DNA of 63,850 nucleotides, counting the filler, from Reclinomonas americana ATCC 50394 (Eukaryota), in assembly GCA_048213135.1 (NCBI GenBank). It is 19 parts of 19 records of this genome, joined end to end, with 100 filler letters (N's around TTAATTAATTAA, not from the genome) between each part and the next. Parts side by side here need not be neighbours in the genome. Positions count along the whole stretch, not along the records: positions 34,066 to 40,775 come from AFZH01022366.1; positions 40,876 to 43,138 come from AFZH01022367.1; positions 43,239 to 48,136 come from AFZH01022368.1; 16 more parts are not named here. One strand, given 5' to 3'. Below, piece after piece: positions 14,601-47,710 of this stretch (position 1 is its first letter; each line of letters begins with the position of its first letter). Made by a program: the position numbers and the translations under genes. Under the pieces are notes generated by a model, which worked only from the letters and a program-made list of their open reading frames with translations, was not told where the DNA came from and did not search any database.

Positions 14601-15261
14601 CTAGCTGTCGTCTAATCGAGCAAGCCGCGCCTTCAGTCGGCCGCAACGAACTAACTGTCCGATTACTCCTTGACCGAGTAGCCACGAGAGGTCCTCGACA
14701 CCTACATCAGCGGCTCGGCGGTGAAGTCGTCGCACACGTTCGTCCAGAACGTGCAGCGCATCGATCATGCGGTCAATCGCGGAGTGCATGTGATCTTCGG
14801 CAATGAGGTCGACGGGGCGTGCCCACGAGCGCTCCAATCGCTCCAGTCGACGATTGCTTCTGTCCAGCGATTTGTAAATGACTTGCAGTTGCGCACCAAT
14901 GTCTGCATCGACATCGTCCGCCGCCGCTGCCGCTGCTGTTGGTGCTGCGCCAGTTCCAAAAAATGGCACCGCTCCAGATCTCGCAGTGTGCGGGGTTGCT
15001 GTCGCTGAAGCCACTGCCCAGGCCGCCGCCGCCGCCGCCGCAGCCGCTCCAGCTCCAGTCACCGCCCGCGGAAAAACAGGTGAGCTTCGTTGCGGATTCG
15101 GGGCAGCAACAGGCCACGCTGCTGATCCTGACGCCTGACCTCCAGACGTATAAGTAGCTGCCAACCGGAACCGCCAGCGCTGCACAGGAGGATTCGTGTC
15201 GACAAGCATCGGCACTGGCAACGGTGCCGCGTCCGTCGGAGCGAGTGGCAAGCCGGCACCC

Positions 15262-15294
<33 letters not shown>

Positions 15295-18200: not shown

Positions 18201-21200
18201 GGCGGCTGCATGAACCAAACAGCGCAGTGAGACAATATACCAATAGCAATTAGAGACGTGCGCATTAACACAAACCCATGCGATCCTGCACCGTTTCCAC
18301 TTGACTTGCCAGTGTGGGCGTCACCCAGCTCGCATGCGGCAACAATCCAACAGTCGCCACCCACGCGCCACAACCAATTGCGGTCCGCAACGCGGTGAGA
18401 ACGCCACGAAAATCGTCATTGGTGTGGGCAAGGGGTCGAACACGCTCCTGGACTAACCAGCGCACCGCCAGAGGGCCAACGTCAACAAGATTCGCAATGA
18501 ACTCAACGCTGGTCCGGATGCGTGTACGTGAATCAGCAGCAGCAGCCGGTGGCATCGGTGTGATAAATTTCGCACAAAGAACGTCCACACAGTCCTTGAG
18601 ATACTCCACATTAACAGCAGCAGTAGTGTCCGTCCGCGCCCACGCCGGTAACCCGTCACCAAATGCAGCACTCACGTCCACGCGCATCAACCGGCTGAGC
18701 ACAAAGATATTGGCCCTCGTCTCAGATGCGAGACACACGCAGGTGACGAGTTCATCCCCACACGACTCTGCAAGTCTCTTTTTGGCGTAGTCAACGCCGC
18801 CATCGTGATCGTCATCCCAGGAGCAATAACCCGCAAGTGTCAGCAGCAGTCGCGCTCCCTCGGCGGTCAGCTCCACCAGCCGCTTTTGGTAACAGGAAAG
18901 TAACGCGGAGAGGCATCGGTCGCGGTCGCCGACGGCACTCCCATATGCATTTGCGCCGCCACCGTCACTGGCACCATCCTTCCCGTCACTGCCGCTCCCA
19001 CTTGCGCCGTCGCCGTCACTGTCACTGGAGCTAGCACCGGCACTCCAGCTGTCACCCTCACTGGCACTGGCACCGTCACTGTCTATGTCGGTGCTGGACT
19101 CCAGAAATTGCAGCATATCACACAAGACAGCAACTTCCGCCAATCGCTTCCCGCATGCAACTTGAGAGACGTTTCCTGCGTGTCACCCCAGGTGTTTCCA
19201 ATGTGAGTCATAGACGCGTTGTGTGGTGCACCAGACTCGAAGTGCACAGAAACTCACCCTGCACGACACGGTCAAGCATGCGCGCGACGTTGAACACTGT
19301 CGCAGTTGACATTCCGAATGCTTCCGCAAATATCCGAGGACACTGCTCGCGCAACAATCGCACGGCGGTCTCTGTACACGTGGTCCGTGCTGATGAGCTC
19401 AAATCAACCCTCACAGCAGCTGGGGGAGCCACCGCTGCTGCTGCTGCTGATGGTGCCGAGTCACTGGCCACGAGCAGTGCGCCATGACACGACTGGTAAA
19501 GCCCAAAGAGAGCAATTGCCGCTTGCACTCGCAGAGTCCCGGCATCCAGGCATAGTGTCTCCACACTCGACAGATCAGCCGTTGAGGAGAGCAACTGATC
19601 CTGCCGCGTTTGCTTCGCCAAGTGGCGGACCTTCTCCTTGCTGCACCCCACACAAGGATACGCAAGGTCAAATGACTGAAGAAGGGGTACGCGAATCCAA
19701 CTTCACGCACACGACGGCAATGTTGTTCCTGAGATTAGGATCATCTCGGTCGCCGGCAGTTGGTACTCCTAGCTGGTCGACCACGCGATCCAGCTGGCGC
19801 TGAGTGGCGCTGGCGCTGGCGTCACCGCTTACGAATGCGACGCAGTCCAGCGGTTGCATTGATGCAGCATGGAGGAATGCCGCTCGTGAGCAACGCGACA
19901 CCCGATACTTGTTGTCAACGAGAGACGTAAGCAGGTACACAGCTGTGCATGGTGTGCGGAGGAGTAAGCAATGGGAAGACACAAAAATCAGCAAGAAAGT
20001 GATAAACCTTTCTTTGATAACTGGTCAAAGTCCGGCGCCGTCGACTCTGTGGTGCCCTTCTTCTCCGCCTCCTCGTCCTCCACCACCTCCTCCTCCTCGA
20101 CCTTCTCCTCGTCGATATCATCGATATCGTCACCCACTGTCAGAGCATCAGCGACCGGGCAAGCAATAGTCACTTCGTCTGCTCCCTCCCCTTCCTGCTC
20201 CTCCTCCTCGTCCTCCTCCTCCTCGTCTGCATAAACGCGACTCCCGCCATCTCCGGCCGGCCGGCGTGGCGCCGGATCCGGGGCAGTCGTCGCAAACAAC
20301 AGCGGCCACTCGGCCACTGGCATGCGAACCAGCTGATCGGCCTGCTCCCGCATGGCAGTCGTCACAACTCCAACAAGACGCGCGTCGCCTGCGCCTCCTG
20401 CCTGAGCAACGGTGACGGCGGCTTCGGCAGAGTTCACGAAATGCTGGGCGCAAGCGCGCACTGTGCTGCTGCACTCCTCCTCCGACGTCGCGACCGGACT
20501 GTCGGCGATGACCACGGCCAGCCTGTCGAGTGCTTCTCCGAGAGTGTACACGACATCCTCGCATTCCATGTCCAAGATGCTCACACCTGCATTGCGTTGG
20601 CGCGTCAGCTCCGACATACTGGTATCGGCGACACAAGAGTCGACTCTCACCATCACTTGCACGCGCAGCTGGAGATGGAATCGAGACGGGCTTGCCAAGT
20701 GCAGCGTTCTCGTGCTGAACACGACAGGCTTTGACAACGCGAAAAATCTTCGCCCATCCTCGCGCTAAAGTGGTGGAAAATGAGCAGACTGCGGACACAC
20801 ACACGTGCGCTCACGAGCATTACTCACAGAGCACATCCTGGAGATGATGCATCTTGGATCTTGCGGTGACAAGTGACCCGAGTGCGTGTTGGACGATCTC
20901 GCTCGCCTGTGACGCAGCGTGCAATCCCAACTCTTCAAACTCGTTGTCACGCTCCGAATTCACGCGCGCGAAAGCAAGAAGGTCTGCACATGAGCGAAAT
21001 GAGTGACAAACCACAAGAACATGCACCCATTCGAAATCCACAAACCAAGTTCGTTACTTCTCATGTCGGACAATAGATATACGTATTCGTTGAATGCCGT
21101 AGAAAGAGTGCTGCTGACCTTGTCCAAACTGGCCTGCTGTTCTTGAGTGGCGTTGCGAAAAAGTGACGATTCGCCGAGGAGAAGATTTCTCCCCGCCGTG

Positions 21201-21273
21201 TCCACACAATCGGGAGGGTTCAGACAGTACGCGAGGCATATGGCATTGCCGATAGCACTCCACACATTAGCCA
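14601..21273 (-). CDS. Giant intron-containing Fanzor2/TnpB-like RuvC nuclease fusion protein (at least ~1,876 aa, 5'-partial)
   Basis: Exons 21273-21058, 20983-20828, 20764-20651, 20586-20008, 19942-19711, 19640-19258, 19175-18276, 18205-17996, 17912-17298, 17223-17140, 17062-16754, 16676-16287, 16192-15982, 15912-15714, 15635-14601. All 14 introns are GT..AG and the frame is preserved. RuvC-I VAAFDPG (D 16330-16332), VVMPFY (P 15873-15875), VSECLSS (E 15543-15545), CMCG..CPQC zinc finger, HRDMKAA (D 15417-15419). Confidence 0.8.
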
Positions 21274-26089: not shown

Positions 26090-26189
26090 NNNNNNNNNNN
26101 NNNNNNNNNNNNNNNNNNNNNNNNNNNNNNNNNTTAATTAATTAANNNNNNNNNNNNNNNNNNNNNNNNNNNNNNNNNNNNNNNNNNNN

Positions 26190-26971
26190 CTGGAAACTTT
26201 TTCTGTCTCGCCATCACCCCCGACAGTCTGCACGTGGTGAGCGGAAGTGGTGGCGATTGTGTGCTGGTGCGGTCGCTGGCGAGTGGGAAAGAGGTGCGTC
26301 GATTGGAGGGGCACACTGCCTCTGTGATGTCAATTGCTGTTACTTTCGACGGGCAGTACGTGGTGAGTGGGAGTTTTGACCAGACAGTGCGCGTGTGGTC
26401 GCTCGCGAGTGGCGAGGAAATGCGACGGATGGAGGGACACACTGACATGGTGGGGTCTGTTGCTGTCTCACCCGATGGTCTGTTTGTGGTGAGTGGCAGC
26501 TATGATCGCACAGTGCGCGTGTGGTCGCTGAAGAGCGGAGATGAGGCGCGCCGGTTGGAGGGTCACACTGGGTGGGTGCGAGCAGTTGCTGTCACACCCG
26601 ATGGTCAGTTCGTTGTCAGCGGGAGCAATGACGACACTGTGCGTATCTGGTCACTGGCGAGTGGCAAAGAGGTGCGACGTCTGGCAGGCGACATTGGTTT
26701 TGTAATGTCTGTGGCTGTCGCTCCCGACGGGCAGCACATTGTTTGTGGTGGCGTGGACGTGCATGTGTGGTCCACACCTTGCGGCCTCGCCAGGTTTGAG
26801 GTGGACGCTGCACGCTCGGCAATGCTCGCCGTGCAGCAGCTGCAAGCGGAGGAGAGCGGTGAGGAAGCGGATCGCCGCTGCCTGCCAGAGCAAGTGCTGC
26901 GGTGCTTTATATTGGAGGAGGCCAGTATGTTGCTCTTCCGCTGCGGCGCGGATCCCCTGCTGCACCTGTGA
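26190..26971 (+). CDS. WD40-repeat protein, plus array copy 1 (5'-truncated by gap)
   Basis: GH..V.S.A..PDG..VVSGS.D.TVRVWS repeats plus the tail DRRCLPEQVLRCFILEEA..FRC. Confidence 0.95.
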
Positions 26972-27113
26972 GGTCTTTGGGGGGGAGTAATGAAGTGTTG
27001 TTGGAGAAGAAGGCGGGGTTGAAACGTCGAGACAGTCCCACTCTCCTCTACAACTTCGTTCATTCGTCTCACACGCAAGCACACCCTCTCATCCCCTCCC
27101 CCCCCCCCCCCCA

Positions 27114-28205
27114 ATGTCTTTCGCTCATCCCTCAGTACTCATCTGTAGAACTGTGCGTGGACACACTGCATGTGTGACGTCAGTTGCCGTCACTCCCGAC
27201 GGTCAGCATCTCGTGAGTGGTAGCTGTGACAGGACAGTGTGTGTGTGGTCACTGGTGAGTGGAAGGGAGGTGCGACAACTGGAGGGACACACGCGCGCGG
27301 TGCATTCTGTCATCGTCACTCCCGACGGCCAGTACATTGTGAGTGGGAGTGTCTTCGGAAAAATTCTAGTGTCGTCACTGGAGAGTGGCGACGAGCGACA
27401 GATGGATTTCGCTGGGGATGAGTGTTGTCTCGCCATCACCCCCGACAGTCTGCATGTGGTGAGCGGAAACCGTGGCGATTGTGTGCTGATGCGGTCGCTG
27501 GCGAGTGGGAAAGTAGTGCGTCAATTGGAGGGACACACTGCCTCGGTAAAGTCAGTTGCTGTTTCACCCGATGGCAAGCACGTGGTGAGTGGCAGTGAAG
27601 ACCAGACAGTGCGAGTGTGGTCACTCGCGAGTGGCGAGGAAATGCGGCGGATGGAAGGGCACAATGCCTCGGTGATGTCTGTTGCTGTCTCACCCGATGG
27701 TCTGCATGTGGTAAGTGGCAGCTATGATCGCACAGTGCGCGTGTGGTCGTTGTCGAATGGTGAAGAGGTGCGGCGAATGGATGGTCACACTGGACGGGTG
27801 CGAGCAGTTGCTGTCACTCCCGACAGTCAGTATGTCGTCAGCGGGAGCGAAGACAGGACTGCGCGAGTGTGGTCACTGGCGAGTGGCAAAGAGGTGCGAC
27901 GGCTGGAGGGATACACTGACTGGGTGCGATCAGTCACAGTTTCTCCCGATGGGCAGCACCTGGTGAGTGGCGGCGACGTGGACGTGCGAGTCTGGTCCAC
28001 ACCTTGCGGCCTTGCTCAGTGCGAGGAAGATGCCGCTCGGTCGGCCATGCTCGCCGTGCAGCAGCTGCAGCGAAAGAGAGCGGAGGAGAGCGGCGTGGAA
28101 GAAGATCGCCGATGTTTGGTGGAGATGGTGCTGCGGTGCTTCGTTGTGGAGGATGCAGAGGCGTCATTCTTCCGCTGCCGCGCGAGTCCCCTGCTGCACC
28201 TGTGA
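27114..28205 (+). CDS. 7-bladed WD40 protein, plus array copy 2 (363 aa, intronless)
   Basis: Starts MSFAHPSVLICRT; seven WD repeats; tail DRRCLVEMVLRCFVVEDAE..FRC. Confidence 0.97.
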   Translation: MSFAHPSVLICRTVRGHTACVTSVAVTPDGQHLVSGSCDRTVCVWSLVSGREVRQLEGHTRAVHSVIVTPDGQYIVSGSVFGKILVSSLESGDERQMDFAGDECCLAITPDSLHVVSGNRGDCVLMRSLASGKVVRQLEGHTASVKSVAVSPDGKHVVSGSEDQTVRVWSLASGEEMRRMEGHNASVMSVAVSPDGLHVVSGSYDRTVRVWSLSNGEEVRRMDGHTGRVRAVAVTPDSQYVVSGSEDRTARVWSLASGKEVRRLEGYTDWVRSVTVSPDGQHLVSGGDVDVRVWSTPCGLAQCEEDAARSAMLAVQQLQRKRAEESGVEEDRRCLVEMVLRCFVVEDAEASFFRCRASPLLHL

Positions 28206-28331
28206 GGCCTTTGGGGGGAAGTAATGAAGTGTTGTTATAGAGAAGAAGGCGGGGTTGCAACGTCGAGACGGTCCCATGATCACTCGTTCATCCATCTTCT
28301 CGCACGCATACACACCCCCTCATCCTTCCAA

Positions 28332-29589
28332 ATGTCTTTTGCTCATCCCTCAGTACTCTTCTGTAGAACCCTGCGCGGTCACAGGCGCACGGTGCATTCT
28401 GTCGCCATCACTCCCGACGGCCAACAAATCGTCAGTGGAAGCAATGACAAGACAGTGCGTGTGTGGTCGCTGGCGAGCGGCGAAGAAGTGCGTCGTCTGG
28501 AGGGACACACACGCGGGGTGTGCTCCGTCGTCGTCACTCCCGACGGCCAGCACATTGTGAGCGGAGGTGACGACAAGACAGTGCGAGTGTGGTCAGTGGC
28601 GAGTGGCAAAGAGGTGCGACAGATTGCTTTCACTGCGGACTTGTGCTGTCTCGCCATCGCCCCCGACAGCCTGCACGTGGTGAGCGGAAGTGGTGACGAC
28701 TGTGTGCGGCTGTGGTCACTGGCGAGTGGAAAATGTGTTCGACGGTTGAAGGGACACACGAACTGGGTTCTGTGCGTGGCTGTCACACCCGATGGTCAGT
28801 ACGTGGTGAGTGGGAGTGATGACTGCACAGTGCGAGTGTGGTCTCTGGCCACTGGCAAGGAAATGCGACGGATGGAGGGGCACACTGCCTCGGTGGTGTC
28901 TGTGACTGTCTCACCCGATGGTCTTTACGTGGTGAGTGGCAGCGCTGATTACACAATGCGCGTGTGGTCGTTGTCGAGTGGTGAAGAGATGCGACGGTTG
29001 AAGGGTCATGCTGACTGGGTGCGATCTGTCGCCGTCACTCCCGATGGTCAGTTCCTCGTCAGCGGGAGCGACGACAAGACAGTGCGTGTGTGGTCGCTGG
29101 CGAGTGGCGAAGAGGTGCGACGTCTGANNNNNNNNNNNNNNNNNNNNNNNNNNNNNNNNNNNNNNNNNNNNTTAATTAATTAANNNNNNNNNNNNNNNNN
29201 NNNNNNNNNNNNNNNNNNNNNNNNNNNGACAGTGTTCGTCTTCTCTTCCCTCTCAAGTGAACTCGAGCGGGCAACAAGTGCGGCGATTGAAAGGTCATGC
29301 GGATGTGGTGCAGTCGGTCACCGTCAGTCCCGACGGGTCGCTCTTGGTGTCGGGGAACTGGGACGGGTCAGTGCAGGTGTGGTATACGCCGTGTGAGCAC
29401 GCGCGTCGAGAACTCCGCCTGGCGCGAATGGCGTGGGGGGCCGTGCGGGAGCTGATGGAGGACGAGAAGGAAGAAGACGAGGAGGATGATTCGCGCTGCT
29501 TGCCAGAGATGGTGTTGCGGTGTTTCCTTGTCGAGGATGCTGCCGTCGTTCTCCACCGGTGCTTTGCGAATCCCGACATGCACTTGTGA
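28332..29589 (+). CDS. WD40 protein, plus array copy 3 (interrupted by gap 29128-29227; the part after the gap may be a fourth copy)
   Basis: Starts MSFAHPSVLFCRT at 28332; after the gap, the last blade and the tail DSRCLPEMVLRCFLVEDAA. Confidence 0.9.
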
Positions 29590-35652: not shown

Positions 35653-36720
35653 TCAATCGCCTGCTGCGGAAGAGTGCCGGAAGAGCATCGCCTCTGCATC
35701 CTCGACGATGAAGCACCTCAGCACAATCTCCACCAGGCAGCGGCGATCTACTTCCTCCTTCTCCTGTAGCTCCTGCACGGCGACCATGGCCCGATGTACG
35801 CAGTCGACTTCTTGTCGCGCGAGACCAAGCGGCGTCGACCACACTCGCACCGTCATGTCTAGACTCCCACTGACGACGTGTTGCCCGTCTGGACTCACGG
35901 TCACCGATCGCAAGCTGTCAGTGTGCCCCTCCAACCGCTGCATCTCCTCGCCACTTGCCAGTGACCACACACGCACTGTTTCGTCGCGACTCCCGCTCAC
36001 AATGTGCAGACCACTGGGGGTGGCAGCCACAGATAACACGGCGTCGGTGTGCCCGACGAATCGTCGCACCTCTTGCCCACTCGCCAGGGACCACACACGC
36101 ACTGTCATGTCCAAACTCCCACTCACAGCGTGCTGGCCATCGGGAGTGGCAGCGACAGCGTACACCCATCTGGTGTGACCCTCCATTCGTCGCACCTCCT
36201 CTCCACTCGCCAGTGACCACATTCGCACGCAGTTGTCCATAATCCCACTCACTACGTGCTGACCGTCGGGAGTGACGGCAACTGACGTCACTGGTGCGCG
36301 ATGGCCTCTCAAACGTCTCACCACCTTGCCACTCGCCAGGGACCACACCGCCAACTCAAACCCTCTGCTCACCACAAGCAGACCATCGCAAGTGACGGCA
36401 ACGGACCGCACGTTTTCGGCGGCTCCTTCCAACCGTCGGACTTCTGCCCCACTCTCCATTGACCACACACGCACTGTGTGGTCATCACTCCCACTCACCA
36501 CGTGCTTTCCATCGGGAGTGACAGCAACAGATTTCACAACTTTTGTGTGTCCCTCCAGCCGTTGCACTTGCTCTCCACTCGCCAGTGACCACACGCGCAC
36601 TGTCTTGTCATGACTACCACTTATAATGTGCTGACCATCGGGAGAGACGGCGGCCGACCACACTCCTTCGGTGTGTCCACGCAGTACCTTGCAGTGGAGG
36701 GTGGAGGTGGCGAGTGACAT
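35653..36720 (-). CDS. 7-bladed WD40 protein, minus array (355 aa)
   Basis: MSLATSTLHCK start, 7 WD repeats, tail VDRRCLVEIVLRCFIVEDAEA. Confidence 0.97.
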   Translation of the reverse strand: MSLATSTLHCKVLRGHTEGVWSAAVSPDGQHIISGSHDKTVRVWSLASGEQVQRLEGHTKVVKSVAVTPDGKHVVSGSDDHTVRVWSMESGAEVRRLEGAAENVRSVAVTCDGLLVVSRGFELAVWSLASGKVVRRLRGHRAPVTSVAVTPDGQHVVSGIMDNCVRMWSLASGEEVRRMEGHTRWVYAVAATPDGQHAVSGSLDMTVRVWSLASGQEVRRFVGHTDAVLSVAATPSGLHIVSGSRDETVRVWSLASGEEMQRLEGHTDSLRSVTVSPDGQHVVSGSLDMTVRVWSTPLGLARQEVDCVHRAMVAVQELQEKEEVDRRCLVEIVLRCFIVEDAEAMLFRHSSAAGD

Positions 36721-36894
36721 TGGTTAGCGCGCAACGAAGGGAGAGGGACGGAGAGTGCGGAGCAACGGGACATGAAGTTGTCGTTCTCTGCTTTCGTAAC
36801 AACAACAAGGTGCGTGGCGTTTCATTGCATACACAAAGACAGGAGAGAAGAGAAAAGCGACGGCGAAGAAAGAGAAAGCCGGTCGACTTCGGAA

Positions 36895-37965
36895 TCACAA
36901 TCGCAAGCAGCGGAACCGAGTTGCCTCCGCCTCTTCAACAATGAAGCACCTCAGCACAATCTCCACCAGACAGCGGGGATCAACCTCCTCCCCTTCCTTC
37001 TCCTTCTCCTCCTGCATCTCCTGCACGGCAAGCAACGCCGAGCGAGCGGCTTCCACTTCCCACCGGGCAAGACCGAGCGGCGTGGACCACACACGCACCG
37101 CCTTGTCCACACTCCCACTGACAATATGCTGCCCGTCGAAACTCACGGCAATAGACCTTACAGCATCCGTATGTCCATCCAGCTGTCGCACTTGCTCTCC
37201 ACTTGCCAGCGACCACACACGCACCGTACCATCAAAGCTGCTACTCACAACGTGTTCGCCATCGGGAGTCACAGCCACAGACAGCACCATGTCAGTGTGC
37301 CCCACAAGTCGTCGCACTTCGTCCCCGCTCGCCAGTGACCACAGCCGCACTGTGTAGTCTCCACTCCCGCTCACCACGTGCTGACCGTCGGCAGTGACGA
37401 CGAGAGACACCAGAGGTGCAGCGTGTCCCTCCATCCGTCGCACCTCTTCGCCACTGGCTAGTGACCACATACGCACAGTGCAGTCGCGGCTCCCACTCAC
37501 AACGTGCTGGCCGTCGGGAGTGACGGCGACACAGTTCACCACACCGGCGTGTCCCTCCAACCGGCGCACCTTTTCTCCACTCGCCAGTGACCACACTATC
37601 ATCTCATAACCTCCACACACAATGTGCTGGCCATTGGGAGTGATGGCAACAGAGTGCACCAAATCAGTGTGCCCCCTCAACCATCGCACCCCCTGTCCAC
37701 TCGCCAGTGACCACACACGCACAGTCTTATCCCAGCTACCACTGAAAACGTGCCTGCCGTCGGGAGTGACAGCGAGAGATGCTACAACTCCAGTGTGGCC
37801 CTCCAATCGTCGCACTTGCTCGCCACTCTTTAACGACCACACGCGCACATTGCGGTCCTCACTCCCGCTCACCACGTGCAGACCGTCGGGAGTGATGGCG
37901 ACTGACCACAGCTCGGTGTGTCCACGCAACGTCTTGCAGTGGAGAGTGGAGGTGGCGAGTGACAT
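36895..37965 (-). CDS. 7-bladed WD40 protein, minus array (356 aa)
   Basis: Same architecture as neighbours, intronless. Confidence 0.97.
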   Translation of the reverse strand: MSLATSTLHCKTLRGHTELWSVAITPDGLHVVSGSEDRNVRVWSLKSGEQVRRLEGHTGVVASLAVTPDGRHVFSGSWDKTVRVWSLASGQGVRWLRGHTDLVHSVAITPNGQHIVCGGYEMIVWSLASGEKVRRLEGHAGVVNCVAVTPDGQHVVSGSRDCTVRMWSLASGEEVRRMEGHAAPLVSLVVTADGQHVVSGSGDYTVRLWSLASGDEVRRLVGHTDMVLSVAVTPDGEHVVSSSFDGTVRVWSLASGEQVRQLDGHTDAVRSIAVSFDGQHIVSGSVDKAVRVWSTPLGLARWEVEAARSALLAVQEMQEEKEKEGEEVDPRCLVEIVLRCFIVEEAEATRFRCLRL

Positions 37966-38130
37966 GGTTGGCGCGCGAGGGAGAGGGAGAGTGTCTGGAG
38001 GACGACAAGGAGCGGGACATTAAGTTTGTCGTTCTCTGCTTTCGTGCCGAGAGCAAGGTGCGTGGTGTTTCATTGCATATGTGCAGAAGGAAAGGAACGG
38101 AAGAGGATACGCCGGTCGACGTCGGAATCA

Positions 38131-39207
38131 CTATCGCAAGCAACGGAATCGAGTTGCCTCCGCCTCTTCAACAATGAAGCACCTCAGCACAATCTCCACC
38201 AGACAGCGGGGATCAACCTCCACTCCCTCTTTCTCCTCTCCCTCTTGCATCTGCTGCACGGCAAGCAACGCCGAGCGAGCGGCTTCCACCTCCCATCGGG
38301 CGGGACCTAGCGGCGTCGACCACACACGCACGTCCGGATCCATGTCACAGCAAACAACACACTGGCTGTCGGGAGTGACAGCGACAGAGCGCACCATTCC
38401 TTTGTGGTTTTCCAACCGGCGCACCTCTTCGCCACTGACCAGCGACCACACACGCACAGTGCGATCAAGGCTGCCACTCACAACGTGTTCGCCATCGGGA
38501 GATACAGCCACAGACAGCACCAGCTCAGTGTGTCCCACAAGTCGTCGCACTTCGTCTCCGCTCGCCAGTGACCACAGCTGCAATGCGCAGCGACCACTCC
38601 CGCTCACCACGTGGTGACTGTCGGCAGTGACGGCGACAGACCGCACCGTATCGGTGTGTCCCTCCATCAGTCGCACTTCCTCCCCACTTGCCAGCGACCA
38701 CACGCGCACCGTGCGATCCTGGCTCCCACTAACAACGCGCTGGCCGTCGGGAGTGATGGCGACACAATTCACAGCACCGGCGTGTCCCTCAAACCGTCGA
38801 ACTTCTTCTCCGGTCGCCAGTGACCACTCACGAGCTGTGTGGTCAAAACCGCCACTCACCACATGCAGACCATCGGGAGTGACGGCAACGGACTGTACCC
38901 AGTCAGTGTGTCCCTCCACCCGTCGCACCTCCTCTCCACTCGCCAGCGACCAAACACGTATGGTGTTGTCCCAGCTGCCACTCACAACGTGTTGACCGTC
39001 GGGGGTGATGGCAACAGATGCCACAACGTCAGTGTGTCCCTCCAGCCGGCGTACTTCCTCGCCACTTGCCAGCGACCACACGCGCACTGTGTGGTCCTCA
39101 CTTCCACTCACCACATGGCGACCATCGGGAGTGATGGCGACCGACCACACTCCTTCGGTGTGTCCACGCATTGTCTTGCAGTGGAGAGTGGAGGTGGCGA
39201 GTGACAT
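38131..39207 (-). CDS. 7-bladed WD40 protein, minus array (358 aa)
   Basis: Same architecture as neighbours, intronless. Confidence 0.97.
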   Translation of the reverse strand: MSLATSTLHCKTMRGHTEGVWSVAITPDGRHVVSGSEDHTVRVWSLASGEEVRRLEGHTDVVASVAITPDGQHVVSGSWDNTIRVWSLASGEEVRRVEGHTDWVQSVAVTPDGLHVVSGGFDHTAREWSLATGEEVRRFEGHAGAVNCVAITPDGQRVVSGSQDRTVRVWSLASGEEVRLMEGHTDTVRSVAVTADSHHVVSGSGRCALQLWSLASGDEVRRLVGHTELVLSVAVSPDGEHVVSGSLDRTVRVWSLVSGEEVRRLENHKGMVRSVAVTPDSQCVVCCDMDPDVRVWSTPLGPARWEVEAARSALLAVQQMQEGEEKEGVEVDPRCLVEIVLRCFIVEEAEATRFRCLR

Positions 39208-39395
39208 TGGTTGGCGCGCGAGGGAGAGGGAGAATGTGTGTCTGGAGGACGACGGACGGATCCACGACGGAGGAGAAATGGGACATGAAGTTGTAGTTCT
39301 CTGCTTTCATGCCGCGAAAAGGTGCGTAGCGTTTCATTGCCTACACAAAGAGAAGAGAAGAGAAGAACGACGACGAAAGCCGATCGACTTCGGAA

Positions 39396-40475
39396 TCACA
39401 ATTGCAGGCAACGGAACCTGGCTACCTCCGCCTCCTCAACAATGAAGCACCGCAGCACCGTCTCGACCAGACAGCGAGGATCTACCTCCTCCCCCTCATT
39501 CTCCTCTCCCTCTTGCATCTGCTGCACGGCAAGCAGCGCCGAGCGAGCGGCTTCCACCTCCCACCCGGCGAGACCAAGTGGCGTGGACCACACACGCAAG
39601 GAGCAATCCCTGCTTCCGGTCACTATGTGCTGTCCACTGGAAGCAACAGCGACTGCGCGCACCACCTGTGTGTGCCCTCGCAGGCGGTGCACCTCCTCGC
39701 CACTTGCCAGCGACCACACACGCACTGTCTTGTCGTTGCTCCCGCTCACCGCATGTTCACCGTCGGGGGAGATGGCGACGGCATGCACTGCACTGGTGTG
39801 TCCCTCCAACCGGCGCACCTCTCGCCCACTCGCCAGCGACCACACTCGTATCGACTTGTCGCGACTTGCACTGACCACATGCTGACCGTCGGGCGTGACA
39901 GCGACTGACCACACCGCATCGGTGTGACCCTCCAACCGCTGCACCTCCTCTCCACTTGCCAGCGACCACACGCGCACCGTGCGATCCTCACTTCCACTCA
40001 CCACATGAAGATCATCGGGAGTGACGGTGACACTGTTCACAGCACGGGAGTGTCCCTCGAGTCGTCCCTCCTCGTCTCCTGTGCCCAATGACCACACGCG
40101 AACTGCTGTTTCCTCGCCCGCGCTCACAACACGCTCTCCATTGGCGGTGACGGCGACAGAGAACACCGATACAGAGTGCATTCCCCACCGACACACTTTG
40201 TCTCCACTCGCCAGTGACCACACTCGCACTGTTCCGTCGTCGCCCCCACTCACAACATGCCGACCGTCGCGGGAGACTGCCACGCACGCCACCCATCCCT
40301 TGTGGCCCTCCAACCGCCGCACTAGTCGTCCACTGCGCAGGCACCAAACACGCACTTTCTTATCTGCGCTCCCGCTCACGATGTGCAGGTTGTCGAGAGT
40401 GAGGGCGACGCAGGTGACAGCACCTCCGTGGCCGTCAATGCGCCTGCAGTGGAGAGTGGAGGTGGCAAGTGACAT
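39396..40475 (-). CDS. 7-bladed WD40 protein, minus array (359 aa; divergent first three blades)
   Basis: ATG of MSLATSTLHCRR at 40475; conserved tail. Confidence 0.95.
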   Translation of the reverse strand: MSLATSTLHCRRIDGHGGAVTCVALTLDNLHIVSGSADKKVRVWCLRSGRLVRRLEGHKGWVACVAVSRDGRHVVSGGDDGTVRVWSLASGDKVCRWGMHSVSVFSVAVTANGERVVSAGEETAVRVWSLGTGDEEGRLEGHSRAVNSVTVTPDDLHVVSGSEDRTVRVWSLASGEEVQRLEGHTDAVWSVAVTPDGQHVVSASRDKSIRVWSLASGREVRRLEGHTSAVHAVAISPDGEHAVSGSNDKTVRVWSLASGEEVHRLRGHTQVVRAVAVASSGQHIVTGSRDCSLRVWSTPLGLAGWEVEAARSALLAVQQMQEGEENEGEEVDPRCLVETVLRCFIVEEAEVARFRCLQL

Positions 40476-40650
40476 AGATGGCGCAAAGTCGGCGCGCAAG
40501 GGAGGAGAAAAGAAAGAGGACATCAAGGAGCGGGACGCAGTCAGCTTTTTCGTGCCATGCTGAACTCGGAGACATCAACAAGGTCTTTCATTACATACAC
40601 AAAGAAAGGCAAGGAAGAACGGTGTCAACGGAAGCCCGTCGACTTCAGAA

Positions 40651-41079
40651 TCATTCTTGCAAGCAACGGAAGCAAGTTGCCTCTGCATCCTCGACGATGA
40701 AGCACCGCAGCACAATCTCCACCAAGCAGCGGCGATCTCCCTCCTCGCCGTCGCCCTCCTCTCCCTCCTGCATCTNNNNNNNNNNNNNNNNNNNNNNNNN
40801 NNNNNNNNNNNNNNNNNNNTTAATTAATTAANNNNNNNNNNNNNNNNNNNNNNNNNNNNNNNNNNNNNNNNNNNNAGTGACGGCGACACATGCCACCAAC
40901 TCAGTGTGTCCCTCCAGCAGTCGCACCTCCTCGCCACTCGTCAATGACCACACGCGTAGTTTGCAGTCCTGCCCCCCGCTCACAGCGTGCAGACCGTTGG
41001 GAGTGATGGCGACTGCCCACACCCCCTCAGTGTATCCACGCATTGCCTTGTTGTGGAGAGGGGAGGTGGCGAGTGACAT
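40651..41079 (-). CDS. WD40 protein, minus array (N- and C-terminal parts flanking gap 40776-40875)
   Basis: MSLATSPLHNK start at 41079; tail DRRCLVEIVLRCFIVEDAEATCFRCLQE ends at TGA 40651. Confidence 0.85.
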
Positions 41080-41265
41080 GGTTGGCGCACACGGGAGAAA
41101 GAGGGAAGTTTGTGTTTGCTTGAAGGACGACAAGGAGCAGGACTTGCAATGCGTTATGCTGAGACATCAACAAGGAGCGAGACTCTTCATTGCACACATA
41201 TGTACGAGGGGAAAAAAGAAAAGCAAGATAACGATACGGGTGAAAGACAATCGCCTTCAGAATCA

Positions 41266-42342
41266 CTATTGCAAGCAACGGAAACGAGCTGCCTCCGCAT
41301 CCTCGACGATGAAGCACCGCAGCACAATCTCAACCAAGCAGCGGCGATCAACCTCCTCGCCCTCCATCTTCTCCTCTACTTGCAGCTCCTGCACGGCGAG
41401 CATGGCCCGATGCGCGCAGTCAACTTCCCATCGAGCGAGACCAAGCGACGTGGACCACACGCCGACTGTTTTGTCGTAACTCCCACTGGCGATGTGTTGC
41501 CCGTCGAGCGCGACGGCGATAGAGTACACCCCATCGCTGTGGCCCTCCAGCCGTCGAGCTTCTTCGCCACTGGCCAGCGACCACACACGCATCGTCATGT
41601 CACGACTCCCGCTCACGAGGTACTGACCATCGGGCGTGACGGTGACAGACCACACCTCGTCTGTGTGTCCAACATATCGTCGCACCTCCTGCCCACTCGC
41701 CAGGGACCACAGCCGCACCGTGTGGTCTCCACTGCCACTGACCACATGCTGCCCGTCAAAAGTCACGGTTACGGACCACACCCAATCAGTGTGGCCCTTC
41801 AACCAGTGCACCGCCTCGCCACTCGCCAGTGACCACACTCGCACTGTGTTATCCCAGCTCCCGCTCACAACGTGCTGACCGTCGGGAGTGACAGCGACAG
41901 ACAACACAGGTGCAGTGTGTCCTTCCAACCGTCTCACCTCCTCGCCACTCTCCAGCGACCACACGCGCACAGTCTCATCAGAACTCCCGCTCACCACGTG
42001 CAGCCCATCGGGAGTGACGGCAACGGACCACACAGCAGCAGTATGTCCTCTCGGCAGCCTTACTTCCTCCCCACTCACCAATGACCACACGTGCAATGTC
42101 TCATCGACTCCGCCACACACCACATGGCGTCCATCAGGGGTGATGGCAACACAGAGTACCTCTCTGAAGCGTCCGCCAAATCGTCGCACCTCCTCGCCAG
42201 TCGCCAGGGTGAACAACAGCACTGTGCTGTCATGACTCCCACTCACCACGTGCTGACCATCGGGAGTGATGGCGACAGAGCTCACAGATGAGGTATGTCT
42301 GCGCACTGCCTTGCAGTGGAGAGTGGAGGTGGCGAGTGACAT
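41266..42342 (-). CDS. 7-bladed WD40 protein, minus array (358 aa)
   Basis: Same architecture as neighbours, intronless. Confidence 0.97.
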   Translation of the reverse strand: MSLATSTLHCKAVRRHTSSVSSVAITPDGQHVVSGSHDSTVLLFTLATGEEVRRFGGRFREVLCVAITPDGRHVVCGGVDETLHVWSLVSGEEVRLPRGHTAAVWSVAVTPDGLHVVSGSSDETVRVWSLESGEEVRRLEGHTAPVLSVAVTPDGQHVVSGSWDNTVRVWSLASGEAVHWLKGHTDWVWSVTVTFDGQHVVSGSGDHTVRLWSLASGQEVRRYVGHTDEVWSVTVTPDGQYLVSGSRDMTMRVWSLASGEEARRLEGHSDGVYSIAVALDGQHIASGSYDKTVGVWSTSLGLARWEVDCAHRAMLAVQELQVEEKMEGEEVDRRCLVEIVLRCFIVEDAEAARFRCLQ

Positions 42343-42522
42343 GGTGGGCGCGCAAGAGACGGAGAGAAGAGGACGTACTGTAGGAGTGGGACATGAAGTC
42401 CGTCATTCATTCTGCTGCGTACTCCACCCAAGAATACGGTACTGAGACGGCACTGTGTATATACACAAGAGGAAAAGGGAAGAACAACACCGTAGGGAGA
42501 AAGCCGATCGATTTTGGAATCA

Positions 42523-43298
42523 CTATTGCAAGCAGCGGAAGCGAGTTGTCTCCGCCTCTTCGACGATGAAGCACCGCAGCACCATCTCTGGCAAGCAACG
42601 GGGATCGACCTCCTCTCCCTCCTCCTTCTCCTCCTCCTCCTGCATCTCCTGCACGGCAAGCATGGCCGAGCGAGCGGCTTCCACCTCCCATCGGGCGAGA
42701 CCGAGCGGCGTGGACCACACTCGCACAACCGCACCAAACGCACCACCCACGATGTGTTGTCCATCGGGACTCACGGCGACAGAGCGCACACTGCCCGCAT
42801 CAATCTCCAACCGCTTCACTTCTTCGCCACTGGCCAGCGACCACACACGCACCGAACCGTCATAGCCACCACTTACCACATGCTGCCCATCGGGAGTGAC
42901 AACCACAGACAACACGTCGTCGGTGTGCCCTTCAAATCGCCGCGTTCCCTCGCCACCTGGCAGGGACCACACGTGCACCGTGTTGTCTGCACTCCCGCTC
43001 ACCACATGCTGGCCATCGGGAGTGACGGCGACGGACCACACCCACTTGGTGTGCTCCTCCAATTGCCGCACCTGTTCTCCACTCACGAGCGACCACACGC
43101 GCACCGTACTATCATTACTGCTACTCACAACGTGCTGCNNNNNNNNNNNNNNNNNNNNNNNNNNNNNNNNNNNNNNNNNNNNTTAATTAATTAANNNNNN
43201 NNNNNNNNNNNNNNNNNNNNNNNNNNNNNNNNNNNNNNCACTCCTCCGGTGTGTCCACGCAGCGTCCTGCAGTGGAGAGTGGAGGTGGCGAGTGACAT
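42523..43298 (-). CDS. WD40 protein, minus array (interrupted by gap 43139-43238)
   Basis: MSLATSTLHCRTLRGH start at 43298; C-terminal blades and tail at 42523-43138. Confidence 0.88.
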
Positions 43299-43442
43299 TG
43301 TGGGCGCGCAAGGGTAGGGGTAGGGAAGTGTGTAAGGACGAATGGGACATTCTCTGCTTTTCGAGCCGAGAACAACGTGCGTGGTTTCATTACAAACACA
43401 GAAAAGGGACGTACGGCAGCGTAGGGAGAAAGACAGTCGACT

Positions 43443-44502
43443 TCAGATTAACCAGCAGCGGAAGTGAGTTGCCTCTGCATCTTCGACAATGAAGCACCGC
43501 AGCACCATCTCCGGCAAGCAACGGTAATCCTCCTTCTCCTCCCCCTCCTGCATCTCCTGCACGGCGAGCATGGCCGACCGAGCGGCCTCCACCTCCCACC
43601 CGGCGAGACCAAGCGGCGTGGACCACACGCGCACTGTGTTGTCCGGGCGAGCACAGCCACTCACGATACGCTGTCACGGCGATAGACCACACCCCTTTGG
43701 TGTGCTCCTCCAGCCGTCGCACTTGCTCTCCACTCGCCAGTGACCACACACACACCGTTTTGTCACGACTGCCACTCACAATGTGTTCACCATTGTGAGT
43801 GACAGCCACAGACATCACCTCCTTCTCGTGACCAACGAATCGTCGCACCTCTTGCCCACTCGACAGGGACCGCACTCGGATCTCCCTGTAATCACCGCTC
43901 ACCACATGCTGGCCATCGGGAGTGACAGCGACAGTGAATACCCACACATAGTAACCGTCCAGTCGTTGCACTTCTTCTCCACTCGCCAGTGACCACACCC
44001 TCACAGTGCCGTCATAACTGCTACTCACAGCACACTGGCTATCGGGTGTGACGGCAACAGACATCACCGCCGCAGCGTGTCCCTCCAATCGTCGCACTTC
44101 TTCTCCACTCACCAGTGACCACACACGCACTGTCATGTCAGCACCCCCACTCACAGCGTACTGACAATCCGGAGTGACGGCGACAGACCACACCCAGCCC
44201 GTGTGTCCCTCCAGTTGTCGCACTTCCTCGCCACTCGCCAGTGACCACACACGCACGGTCTTGTCGGCACTCCCACTCACCACATGCAGGCCGTCGGGAG
44301 TGACGGCAACAGACATTACAGTGTCAGTGTGTCCCTCCAGTTGTCGCACTTGCTCACCACTTGTCAGTGACCACACGCGCACGGTGTGGTCTTCACTTGC
44401 GCTCACCGCATGGCGACCGTCGGGAGTGATGGCGACCGACCACACTCCTTCGGTGTGTCCGCGCATTGTCTTGCAGTGGAGAGTTGAGTTGGCGAGTGAC
44501 AT
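43443..44502 (-). pseudogene. Frameshifted WD40 array copy
   Basis: Blade 7 reads GCC GTG A|CAG CGT ATC GTG AGT GGC, lacking ~11 nt of the usual ..GT CCC GAT GGG near 43673. The tail continues intact in another frame (43443-43664). Confidence 0.75.
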
Positions 44503-44643
44503 TGGTGTGGCGTGCAAGGGAGAGGGAAAGAGCGTGTGATGAAGGAGGACATGCGTGACCATCGGGACTTCGGAGACATCAAGAAGCTTTTCATTGCATG
44601 TGCAGAAGGAAAGGGAAGTTTCAAAAGACGGTCGACCTCGGGA

Positions 44644-45714
44644 TCACGAGCAACGGAACTGAGTTGCCTCTGCATCTTCGACGATGAAGCACCGCAGTAC
44701 AATCTCTGGCAAGCAACGGCGATCGACCTCCTCTTCCTCTCCCACCTGCATCTCCTGCACGGCTAGCATAGCCGAGCGAGCGGCCTCCACTTCCCATCGA
44801 GCGAGACCAAGCGGCGTGGACCACACGCGCACCGTCTTGTCCAGACTCCCACTGATGATGTGCTGCCCATCGGGACTCACGGCAACACACATCACACCAT
44901 AAGTATGTCCCTCCAGCCGTCGCACCTCCTCGCCGCTGGCCAGGGACCACAGCCGTACTGTGTGTTCTGAACTCCCACTCACGATGTGCTGTCCATCGGG
45001 CGTGACGGTGACGGACCACACCTCATTGGAGTGCCCAACAAATCGTCGCACCTCCTCTCCACTTTCCAGCGACCACACTCGCATCGTTCCGTCATAGCCC
45101 CCACCAACCACATGCTGGCCATCGGGAGTGACAGCGACAGACCGCACCCAGCCAGTGTGTCTCTCCAATCGCCGCACTTCTTCTCCACGCGCCAGTGACC
45201 ACACTCTCACAGTGCAGTCCTGGCCTGCGAGCACAACGTGCTGACCGTCGGGAGTGATAACGACAGACATTACCGATCTGTCTGGTCCCACCATCCGTCG
45301 CACCACCTCGCCACTTGCCAGGGACCACACACACACTGTGTCGTCTTCAATCCCACTCACCACATGCACACCATCGGGAGTGACAGCAACGGACCGCAAT
45401 TGCACCCATACAGTGTGCCCCTGCATCTGCCGCACCACCTCCCCACTCGCCAGTGACCACACACGCACAGTGCTGTCCCAGCTGGCACTCACGATATGAT
45501 GGCCGTCGGGAGTGACAGCAACGCGTGTCACCATGTCAGTGTGTCCCTCCAGTTGTCGCACTTGCTCACCACTTGTCAGTGACCACACGCGCACGGTGTG
45601 GTCTTCACTTGCGCTCACCGCATGGCGACCATCGGGCGTAATGGCGACCGACCACACTCCTTCGGTGTGTCCGCGCATTGTCTTGCAGTGGAGAGTGGAG
45701 GTGGCGAGTGACAT
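44644..45714 (-). CDS. 7-bladed WD40 protein, minus array (356 aa)
   Basis: ATG at 45714; tail VDRRCLPEIVLRCFIVEDAEATQFRCS. Confidence 0.96.
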   Translation of the reverse strand: MSLATSTLHCKTMRGHTEGVWSVAITPDGRHAVSASEDHTVRVWSLTSGEQVRQLEGHTDMVTRVAVTPDGHHIVSASWDSTVRVWSLASGEVVRQMQGHTVWVQLRSVAVTPDGVHVVSGIEDDTVCVWSLASGEVVRRMVGPDRSVMSVVITPDGQHVVLAGQDCTVRVWSLARGEEVRRLERHTGWVRSVAVTPDGQHVVGGGYDGTMRVWSLESGEEVRRFVGHSNEVWSVTVTPDGQHIVSGSSEHTVRLWSLASGEEVRRLEGHTYGVMCVAVSPDGQHIISGSLDKTVRVWSTPLGLARWEVEAARSAMLAVQEMQVGEEEEVDRRCLPEIVLRCFIVEDAEATQFRCS

Positions 45715-45864
45715 TGGTGTGGCGTGCAAGGGAGAGGGAAAGAGCGTGTGATGAAGGAGGACATGCGTGACCATCGATATCGGGACTTCTGAGACATCAA
45801 GAAGAAGCTTTCAATTGCATGTACAGAAGGAAAGGGAAGTTTCAAAAGATGGTCGACCTCGGGA

Positions 45865-46953
45865 TCACGAGCAACGGAACTGAGTTGCCTCTGCATCTTC
45901 GACGATGAAGCACCGCAGTACAATCTCTGGCAAGCAGCGGCGATCGACCTCCTCTCTCTCCTTCTCCTCTCCCTCCTCCTCCTCTCCCTCCTGCATCTCC
46001 TGCACGGCGAGCATGGCCGAGCGAGCGACTTCCACCTCCCACTGCGCGAGACTGAAGGACGTGGACCACACTCGCACCGTCATGTCTAGACTCCCACTGA
46101 CGACGTGTTGCCCATCGGGACTCACGGCAGCGCACAGCATCCCACGAGTGTGCTTCTCCAGCCGTCGCACCTCCTCGCCACTCGCCAGCGACCACACACG
46201 CACCGTCCCGTCATGACCTCCACTCACAATGTGCTGACCTGCGGGCGTTGCAGTCACAGACAACACGCCGCCGCTGTGCCCAACGACTTGTCGCACTTCT
46301 TCTCCACTCGCGAGAGACCACACACGCACGGTGCTGTCTTCACTACCACTCACCACATGCTGGCCATCGGGAGTGACGGCGACCGACCACACCCACCTGG
46401 TGTGACCGCTCAACCGGCACAATTCCTCGCCAAGCGCCACGGACCACACACGCACTGTCATGTCCAAACTCCCGCTTACAACGTGCTGGACATCGCGGGT
46501 GACGGCAACAGACAGCACCGCCGCAATGTGTCCCAACAGTCGTCGCACCTCCTCGCCACTCGCCAGGGACCACACTCGCACTGTGGTGTCTCCACTCCCG
46601 CTCAGCACATGCAGACCATCGGGAGTGACGGCAATGGACCACACAGCAGCAGTGTGTCCTTTCAACAGTTGCACTTCCTCCCCGCTCTCCAGTGACCACA
46701 CTCGCACAGTGCTGTCCCAGCCGGCACTCACGATATGATGGCCGTCGGGAGTGACGGCAAGAGATGTCACCTGTGCATTGTGCCCCTCCAGCAGTCGCAC
46801 CTCCTCACCACTCGCCAGTGACCACACGCGCACTGTTTTGTCTCCACTCCCACTCACAGCATACCTACCGTCGGGGGTGACAGCAACAGACATGATCTGC
46901 GCGGTGTGCCCGCGCATCGTCTTGCAGTGGAGAGTGGAGGTGGCGAGTGACAT
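45865..46953 (-). CDS. 7-bladed WD40 protein, first gene of minus array (362 aa)
   Basis: ATG at 46953, directly downstream of a (CT)n tract; conserved tail. Confidence 0.96.
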   Translation of the reverse strand: MSLATSTLHCKTMRGHTAQIMSVAVTPDGRYAVSGSGDKTVRVWSLASGEEVRLLEGHNAQVTSLAVTPDGHHIVSAGWDSTVRVWSLESGEEVQLLKGHTAAVWSIAVTPDGLHVLSGSGDTTVRVWSLASGEEVRRLLGHIAAVLSVAVTRDVQHVVSGSLDMTVRVWSVALGEELCRLSGHTRWVWSVAVTPDGQHVVSGSEDSTVRVWSLASGEEVRQVVGHSGGVLSVTATPAGQHIVSGGHDGTVRVWSLASGEEVRRLEKHTRGMLCAAVSPDGQHVVSGSLDMTVRVWSTSFSLAQWEVEVARSAMLAVQEMQEGEEEEGEEKEREEVDRRCLPEIVLRCFIVEDAEATQFRCS

Positions 46954-47021: not shown

Positions 47022-47241
47022 AACGCAGGGAAAGTATGCGTGAGAAAAGTGAGGAAACACAATAGAGAGTGAGCGTGCTGAGAACGCGACACAAGAGCCA
47101 CAGCGAGTGAAAGATACAAGAGTGAAAGAGGGTTCGGAGACAGATGACGTCCTTGTGTTTGTCCCTCTTCTTTGTGTTTTTCCTTGTGTTATCATCGTGC
47201 TTTCGTCGCGTGGGAGAGGTGGTACGGTTGACAGAGTGTTA

Positions 47242-47710
47242 TACATGTGTCGCAAGTGCGCACAAGACTGAGTATGCATCATCTTTTCATTTTCTCGATG
47301 AGCAAGGCACGAGAATGGCATGTAAATGGCATGTAAAGTGGAGAAACCGAGAGCTTGTTCACGGAATTTCCCCGTCCATTTCTCCTCGTGAGGGAGACGT
47401 TTTATGGTTCGTACGAGTATTATATGTGCCACAAGTGCGTACAAGACAGAGTATGCATCATTCTTTTCAATTTCTCGATGAACAAGTCACGAGAATGGCA
47501 TGTAAATGGCATGTAAAGTGGAGAAACCGCAGCGAGAGCTTGTTCGCGGAATGTCCCCGTCCATTTCCCCTCGTGAGGGAGACGTTTTATGGTTCGTACG
47601 AGTATTACACATGTGCCACAAGTGCGTACAAGACAGAGCATGCATCATTCTTTTCAATTGCTCGATGAACAAGTCACGAGAATGGCACGTAAATAGCATG
47701 TAAAGTGGAG
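47242..47710. repeat. ~180-186-bp tandem repeat, ~2.5 copies, in a divergent intergenic region
   Basis: Units start A.ATGTG.C.CAAGTGCG.ACAAGAC.GAG at ~47242, ~47422 and ~47608; internal TGGCATGTAAA doublet. Confidence 0.9.

What the first reader, a model, noticed from the sequence alone, without database searches (positions are those of the whole stretch)
35653..46953. Variation concentrated at the same top-face positions of every blade
Seen: the scaffold WSLASGEEVRRLEGH...V..VAVTPDG.HVVSG..D.TVRV is nearly fixed. The residues in GH-x-x-x-V-x-S (TEGVW, TKVVK, RAPVT, TRWVY, TDAVL, AGVVN, KGMVR, SNEVW, TYGVM) and SGS-x-D-x (HDK, DDH, WDN, RDC, LDM, QDR, YDG) change between blades and between genes. 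Known: these positions form the WD40 top-face binding surface and correspond to those under diversifying selection in Podospora HNWD repeats. Inference: concerted evolution of the frame with diversification of the binding face.
Basis: partly seen in the sequence, partly recalled or inferred. Interest (0 to 1): 0.7.

Follow-up and report, generated by a model that had tools for sequence, protein, structure and literature searches.

The report
Variable-faced WD40 propellers, patch-shuffled
Ten neighbouring genes for ring-shaped binding proteins in a protist differ mainly at the same five binding-face positions of each blade and swap pieces with their many relatives, but strong ongoing selection for new faces is not shown for these ten.

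Summary
Observation confirmed. Ten tandem intronless genes (7 WD40 blades plus an orphan helical tail, no NACHT) vary most at blade positions 25, 27, 7, 9 and 6. The top four match the Podospora HNWD selected codons by spacing; three are the generic WD40 top-face hotspots. The inference is only partly supported. M8-type models with one shared dS pick exactly these five positions (omega 1.7-2.0). Models with site-specific dS or multi-base changes give 0.65-0.9, and unbiased close pairs give 0.70-0.92 against 0.73 expected from static preferences. Blades are not homogenised within genes (mean 68% identity). Instead genes recombine in register with neighbours and take short patches from a family of roughly 1,200. 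The same blade serves NACHT-WD40 NLR-like genes elsewhere in this genome. Their young blades do show omega 1.5-4.3, and one tail gene carries NLR-type blades. Best reading: a recognition repertoire, diversified when young and then reshuffled; ligand unknown. The scan noted this family before on other DNA of this genome.

The parts
45865..46953 (-). gene A: 7 WD40 blades + tail, 362 aa
44644..45714 (-). gene B, 356 aa; mosaic: blades 1-5 match gene 1 of the second array copy (C219), blades 6-7 match its gene 2
43443..44502 (-). gene C; frameshift in blade 7 near 43675, tail in another frame (real or sequencing error not known)
42523..43298 (-). gene D, interrupted by the N gap 43139-43238
41266..42342 (-). 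gene E, 358 aa
40651..41079 (-). gene F, mostly lost in the N gap 40776-40875
39396..40475 (-). gene G, 359 aa
38131..39207 (-). gene H, 358 aa; modelled as a 7-bladed propeller
38131..38322 (-). family tail (shown for gene H): two-helix hairpin with acidic linker, omega 0.18, no known family
36895..37965 (-). gene I, 356 aa
35653..36720 (-). gene J, 355 aa; its counterpart in C219 is broken
26138..29589 (+). second cluster of the same family: one complete gene (27114-28205) and two cut by N gaps

Best explanation
These are members of a very large, lineage-restricted family of single-propeller binding proteins: a variable top face for a ligand and a constant tail for a shared partner. Shown: the frame and tail are under purifying selection; five top-face positions carry most of the variation and keep binding-type residues; neighbouring genes recombine blade for blade; differences between close copies come in short multi-base patches, some also found in distant blades; the same blade unit serves NLR-like genes, and at least one tail gene was rebuilt with NLR-type blades. 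Inferred: a propeller is now and then renewed from a young repeat unit, its top face is driven apart by diversifying selection while the blades are still alike, and in older genes such as these ten the face then turns over at about the neutral rate within binding-type limits, fed by patch conversion. Inferred, untested: the ligands are non-self molecules (invaders or prey), and the family works beside the NLRs as a recognition repertoire.
For: Scaffold omega 0.25-0.31, tail 0.18. 178 of 181 complete genes have distinct 35-residue faces; Trp is 26% at position 7 against about 1% neutral, aromatic residues 28-30% at 7 and 9, Pro under 0.5% at 6, 9, 25, 27 against 8%. Gene B switches from one C219 gene to the next near nt 650-656. 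Of 475 blades with a neighbour at 90% identity or more, 473 have it at the same blade index. Clusters of differences in 250 close pairs: 106 against 60.5 +/- 5.4; both variants found in distant blades for 19 of 105 clusters against 5.9 expected. Positions 6/7 and 7/9 change together (p 0.004, 0.010); positions on different loops do not significantly. Simulated patch conversion reproduces the real fit, constant positive selection does not. Young blades: omega 1.9 and 2.6 with own dS, above 1 in 12 of 12 subset fits, nulls reaching 1.9 in 1, 1 and 2 of 60 runs; older NLR blades 0.73-0.77. Tail gene L023:1025-2101 is 87-90% identical to NLR blades and 78-85% to any other tail gene.
Against: Only 6 of the 12 young-subset fits are significant, and most of the six use scaffold-only trees. 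Strong episodic bursts of selection mimic the deep fit about as well as conversion. Exact donors for the full d-a loop were found in only 2 of 18 cases and for the b-c loop in 0 of 11; the shared patches are short (9-19 nt) and recurrent mutation is not fully excluded. Only 1 of 181 tail genes has NLR-type blades, from a sample of 11 NLRs; none of the window's genes does (66-80%). The tail-versus-blade comparison of synonymous identity goes the other way in 3 of 8 codon boxes. No ligand, partner or expression is shown for these ten genes, and no NACHT P-loop lies in the window.
Confidence: 0.55

Rival explanations
1. One reading: the window's blades are under ongoing positive selection at the top face on a concertedly evolving frame, as in HNWD.
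For: M8 against M8a LRT 29.0 and 36.0 on 58 blades, exactly positions 6, 7, 9, 25, 27, omega 1.67-2.03; gene level LRT 11.1 and 16.9, with 20 of 21 and 19 of 22 sites at these positions. Strong episodic selection can depress own-dS omega towards 1 in simulation.
Against: Own-dS omega 0.91 in the 7 window genes and 0.65 with multi-base changes; 0 of 284 sites with posterior above 0.9 in 105 genes; flank-chosen close pairs 0.70 (0.42-1.06) and 0.92 (0.68-1.19); no within-gene homogenisation.
Confidence: 0.2
2. Generic property of repetitive WD40s: the hotspot positions are simply the least constrained, the family expanded by tandem duplication, and no diversifying selection is needed at any stage.
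For: Static mutation-selection expectation 0.73 for the top face and 0.25 for the scaffold matches the close-pair values. PMC5587647 reports that highly repetitive WD40s are conserved except at hotspot sites (passage).
Against: Young blades exceed 1 with their own dS. Exposed bottom and side positions stay under purifying selection while only the top face is free. Strong Trp/Tyr/Arg enrichment.
Confidence: 0.2
3. Substrate receptors of a ubiquitin ligase (WD40-SOCS or F-box-like), with the tail as adaptor.
For: Architecture by analogy only (recalled): variable propeller plus constant helical C-terminal module; tail omega 0.18.
Against: No F-box or SOCS-box match among 80 tails even at E 10; no PDB sequence match; the model is a two-helix hairpin.
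Confidence: 0.1

Closest known systems
Podospora anserina HNWD/NWD genes (het-d, het-e); PMC1805685 and PMC12222747, passages read
   Same: 42-codon WD40 repeat; hypervariable codons 7, 9, 25, 27 around purifying codons 8 and 26; top-face location; repeat exchange between genes.
   Different: Window genes have no NACHT or HET domain, one propeller and an orphan tail; blades are 50-78% identical within a gene against 80-100%; FEL-type positive selection is not found in them; about 1,200 genes against 10.
Highly and moderately repetitive WD40 proteins of prokaryotes and lower eukaryotes; PMC5587647, passages and section 10; PDB 5yzv
   Same: Consensus-like blades from repeat-level duplication, conserved except at hotspots; model matches 5yzv at 0.9 A over 287 columns.
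   Different: Here a huge tandem gene family with a constant tail, in-register chimeras and patch exchange.
NACHT-pentapeptide-WD40 NLR-like genes of this same genome
   Same: Same blade consensus, same five variable positions, shared synonymous habits; one tail gene has their young blade type.
   Different: They have an N-terminal HEPN-like lead, NACHT, pentapeptide repeats and about 14 blades, and lack the tail motif.
WD40 top-face hotspots R1-2, R1, D-1; PMC3419727, passages
   Same: Positions 7, 9 and 25 fit these three by the paper's sequence rule.
   Different: Positions 6 and 27 vary as much here and are not among the three.

Membership tests
WD40 seven-bladed propeller | Seven GH...WD-type repeats folding as a propeller | tested here: met
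   Pfam PF00400 with 6-7 stretches in 5 of 5 full proteins; model and fold match
HNWD/NWD NLR (window genes) | NACHT domain before the repeats | tested here: not met
   Genes are 355-362 aa from Met to stop; no P-loop motif in six frames of the window
HNWD/NWD NLR (window genes) | High internal conservation, 80-100% between repeats of a gene | tested here: not met
   Mean 68%, range 50-78%, 105 blade pairs
HNWD/NWD NLR (window genes) | Hypervariable codons 7, 9, 25, 27 | tested here: met
   The four highest entropies; numbering matched by spacing to the paper's passages
HNWD/NWD NLR (window genes) | Positive selection at those codons by FEL-type test | tested here: inconclusive
   Own-dS tests not significant; shared-dS M8 significant; own code, not HyPhy or PAML
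HNWD/NWD NLR (window genes) | Repeat exchange within and between genes | tested here: inconclusive
   Between genes in register: yes; within genes: no excess (p 0.58); patch exchange supported statistically
HNWD/NWD NLR (window genes) | Repeat-number polymorphism between alleles | not testable with these tools
   One assembly; my alignment template also assumes seven blades
HNWD/NWD NLR (window genes) | Non-self recognition with cell death | not testable with these tools
   No assay
WD40-SOCS / F-box-WD40 substrate receptors | SOCS box or F-box by profile | tested here: not met
   0 of 80 tails match either at E up to 10; no PDB sequence match
WD40-SOCS / F-box-WD40 substrate receptors | SOCS or F-box fold of the tail | tested here: inconclusive
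   Two-helix model, pLDDT 82; best Z 7.3 among generic hairpins

The most novel reading that the evidence does not exclude
A single-celled eukaryote (probably a jakobid) keeps a germline recognition repertoire of more than 1,000 stand-alone propellers that shares one blade pool with its HEPN-like/NACHT/WD40 NLRs. New faces arise by selection in freshly amplified blades and spread by in-register shuffling and patch conversion, so the stand-alone genes act as sensors or decoys for the NLRs, or as a donor library for them.
Probability: 0.2. Interest if true: 0.82.

Novelty: new variant of a known kind. Interest (0 to 1): 0.5.

Why it matters
The top-face pattern itself is known from HNWD genes and from repetitive WD40s in general, so alone it is expected. 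What is less expected is its use in about a thousand NBD-less genes of a protist, which exchange sequence with each other and share a blade unit with NLR-like genes of the same genome. That would extend HNWD-style receptor diversification beyond fungi and give a testable system for innate recognition in a free-living flagellate. It is also a clear case where M8 reports selection that tests with site-specific dS do not.

Tried and rejected
Tail identity: no Pfam family for the single tail or consistent family for 80 tails; no PDB sequence match; no usable ESM Atlas hit; structure search gave only generic hairpins, best Z 7.3, which excludes no family; no relative in viral contigs. Profile search of 1.84 billion representatives gave 4 hits, 3 with the tail and one (P0004) judged spurious on an acidic stretch. 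Tail homodimer prediction: no verdict, score 0.01, alignment not used. Close pairs chosen on the blade's own scaffold gave top pN over scaffold pS of 1.3-1.65; rejected as biased and replaced by pairs chosen on flanking blades. Multi-hit fits did not converge and were redone. Binning pairs by tail identity was biased and replaced by a codon-matched comparison. Two apparent out-of-register pairs were register errors of a broken ORF. A locally raised point-mutation rate is not supported: synonymous differences at unchanged top codons were 14 against 19.7 and 43 against 45.1 expected. Loop-targeted conversion is not supported: shared patches occur in scaffold (12 of 45) as well as top clusters (7 of 60). 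Literature searches for this family or for jakobid NLRs found nothing relevant (listings and abstract starts only); the library lacks most subscription papers.

Full report
Anatomy. The - strand between 35653 and 46953 carries ten head-to-tail intronless genes (ten starts). Seven are complete (355-362 aa), one is frameshifted in blade 7 and two are cut by N gaps; three more lie on the + strand at 26138-29589. Each has seven 42-residue WD40 repeats (Pfam PF00400) and a tail of about 60 residues. Gene H models as a seven-bladed propeller (pLDDT 85.8) that matches PDB 5yzv at 0.9 A. The tail models as a two-helix hairpin with no known family. No NACHT P-loop lies in the window. The tail search in the own genome scored 150 of 1,545 candidates, all matching. 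A 20-base tail pattern has 385 matches with control 0 and occurs in 57 of 181 sampled genes, which suggests about 1,200 copies (rough, from a biased sample, broken genes and second copies included). The only named relative is an EST-derived protein of Reclinomonas americana, so the organism is probably a jakobid; I did not establish this.

Data and methods. I fetched 100 stretches around tail hits and their flanks. The first set gave 171 ORFs, of which 105 were complete; the second gave 289, of which 181 were complete. Incomplete ORFs were left out of the gene-level tests; some of their blades entered pair and pool tests. All codon models are my own code (MG94 or F61, FastTree trees, grids or Nelder-Mead), not PAML or HyPhy.

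The observation. In 58 window blades the five most variable positions are 25, 27, 7, 9 and 6 (3.0-3.7 bits); 34 of 42 positions are at most 1.81 bits. PMC1805685 (passages) names codons 7, 9, 25, 27 as selected and 8 and 26 as purifying, with 7/9 in the d-a loop and 25/27 in the b-c turn. The spacing and loop positions match here. PMC12222747 (passages) lists seven positions in another numbering; by my inferred offset of five they include 5, 6 and 34, of which only 6 is hypervariable here. Positions 7, 9 and 25 fit the general hotspots R1-2, R1 and D-1 (PMC3419727 passages), and PMC5587647 (passages and section 10) already reports that repetitive WD40s are conserved except at hotspots. The pattern is therefore real but not in itself new.

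Selection, results for. With one dS for all sites, M8 beats M8a on the 58 blades (LRT 29.0 and 36.0) and assigns exactly 6, 7, 9, 25, 27 to a class with omega 1.67-2.03; at gene level LRT is 11.1 and 16.9. In 105 genes shared-dS omega is 1.4-2.0 at 6, 7, 9, 25 and 1.0 at 27. The residues are not neutral: Trp 26% at position 7, aromatics 28-30% at 7 and 9, Pro almost absent at four positions; 178 of 181 faces are distinct.

Selection, results against. With dS estimated at the same codons no position is significant in the window, the class value is 0.91 in the seven genes and 0.82 in 105 genes, and 0 of 284 sites reach posterior 0.9. Allowing multi-base changes brings the shared-dS value to 0.65; that such changes inflate site tests is also recalled from the literature. 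In close blade pairs chosen only on their flanking blades, top-face pN over pS is 0.70 (0.42-1.06; 91 blade pairs, 29 gene pairs) or 0.92 (0.68-1.19; 126 pairs, 43 gene pairs), against 0.26-0.31 for the scaffold. A static mutation-selection model from the observed residue frequencies predicts 0.73 and 0.25. Part of the gap between models is that valine columns have a slow synonymous clock (1.0 against 2.1-2.5 in other columns).

Why the models disagree. The real fit has raised dS and dN at the top face and a strong multi-hit signal. Simulated constant positive selection does not give this; patch replacement from the pool does, and so do strong episodic bursts. Direct signs favour patches. Neighbouring top codons change together but codons on different loops do not significantly. 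Changes of two or more bases make up 11 of 34 top-face replacements against 15 of 117 in the scaffold (p 0.018), and synonymous differences rise next to a changed loop (8 of 66 against 22 of 420, p 0.048) but not far from it. Differences cluster (106 against 60.5 +/- 5.4), and both variants exist in distant blades in 19 of 105 clusters against 5.9 expected. Full-loop donors were rarely found (2 of 18 and 0 of 11).

Concerted evolution. Blades of one gene are 68% identical on average (50-78%), no closer than blades of different genes at different positions (0.707 against 0.710), and only 2 of 49 have their nearest neighbour in the same gene. HNWD repeats are 80-100% identical. Exchange between genes is clear. 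Contig C219 is a colinear second copy of window 34178-61206 at 85-92%; whether allele or duplicate is open, since window 15400-17300 is single-copy. Its genes are mosaics relative to the window's: gene B follows C219 gene 1 up to about nt 655 and gene 2 after about nt 650. Recent relationships are in register (473 of 475). At depth, blade index is almost erased: synonymous identity is 0.563 for the same index, 0.554 for different index and 0.453 for tails, though 3 of 8 codon boxes go the other way. This fits slow family-wide exchange on top of common descent from one unit.

The NLR link. An earlier scan note on a neighbouring NLR prompted a NACHT search: 97 scored matches of 287 candidates. 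Of 13 distinct loci viewed, 11 encode NACHT followed by WD40 repeats with the same blade and no tail motif, most with pentapeptide repeats between. Their 127 ungapped blades vary at the same five positions. One of 181 tail genes (L023:1025-2101) has seven blades 87-90% identical to NLR blades and 80-93% to each other; it has no in-frame ATG directly upstream. In this young pool (37 blades, chosen by scaffold identity to one reference) own-dS omega is 1.9 (LRT 4.5) or 2.6 (LRT 9.6). It is above 1 in 12 of 12 subset fits and significant in 6; nulls reached 1.9 in 1, 1 and 2 of 60 runs; older NLR blades give 0.73-0.77. The HNWD analogy thus holds best outside the finding's coordinates.

Verdict. 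'Diversifying selection' is not shown for these ten genes, and 'concerted evolution' holds only as slow exchange between genes. The best model is a recognition repertoire whose faces diverge under selection when blades are young and are later reshuffled; ligand, tail partner and expression are unknown. I found no paper on this family. I read no supplements; Table S4 and Figure 3 of PMC1805685 bear on the exact position match. The scan noted the family on other pieces of this genome. New variant of a known kind, interest 0.5.

Noticed in passing
L114-L123, L125 (G000 NACHT loci): The N-terminal domain of the NLR-like genes has an R-x4-H motif in 10 of 11, weak HEPN_Swt1 matches below cut-off in 3 of 5 (E 0.02-0.09) and HEPN atlas leads at 0.81 and 0.78: possibly an RNase effector.
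   Followed up: partly
L023:1025-2101 (-), G000:C381: Tail-family gene with seven NLR-type, internally similar blades and no in-frame ATG directly upstream.
   Followed up: yes
L121 (G000:C56:36900-42900): NLR with 14 blades 71-92% identical to each other, the closest to HNWD-type internal conservation seen; top-face omega 3.5-4.3.
   Followed up: partly
window 34178-61206 against G000:C219:71622-107071: Colinear second copy at 85-92% identity with different gene mosaics and different broken genes; allele or duplicate not settled.
   Followed up: partly
P0002, P0003: Two unnamed proteins carry the same tail behind much more diverged propellers, so the tail is older than this blade type.
   Followed up: no
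window 47234-47710: Tandem repeat of 187 bases, 2.6 copies, 90% matches, just upstream of the array.
   Followed up: no
window, 17 N gaps (for example 40776-40875): Each gap holds the same 12-base stop linker, and gaps in genes D and F are shorter than the missing sequence, so gap sizes are nominal.
   Followed up: no
window 14601-21273: An earlier scan note describes a Fanzor-like gene here; not checked.
   Followed up: no
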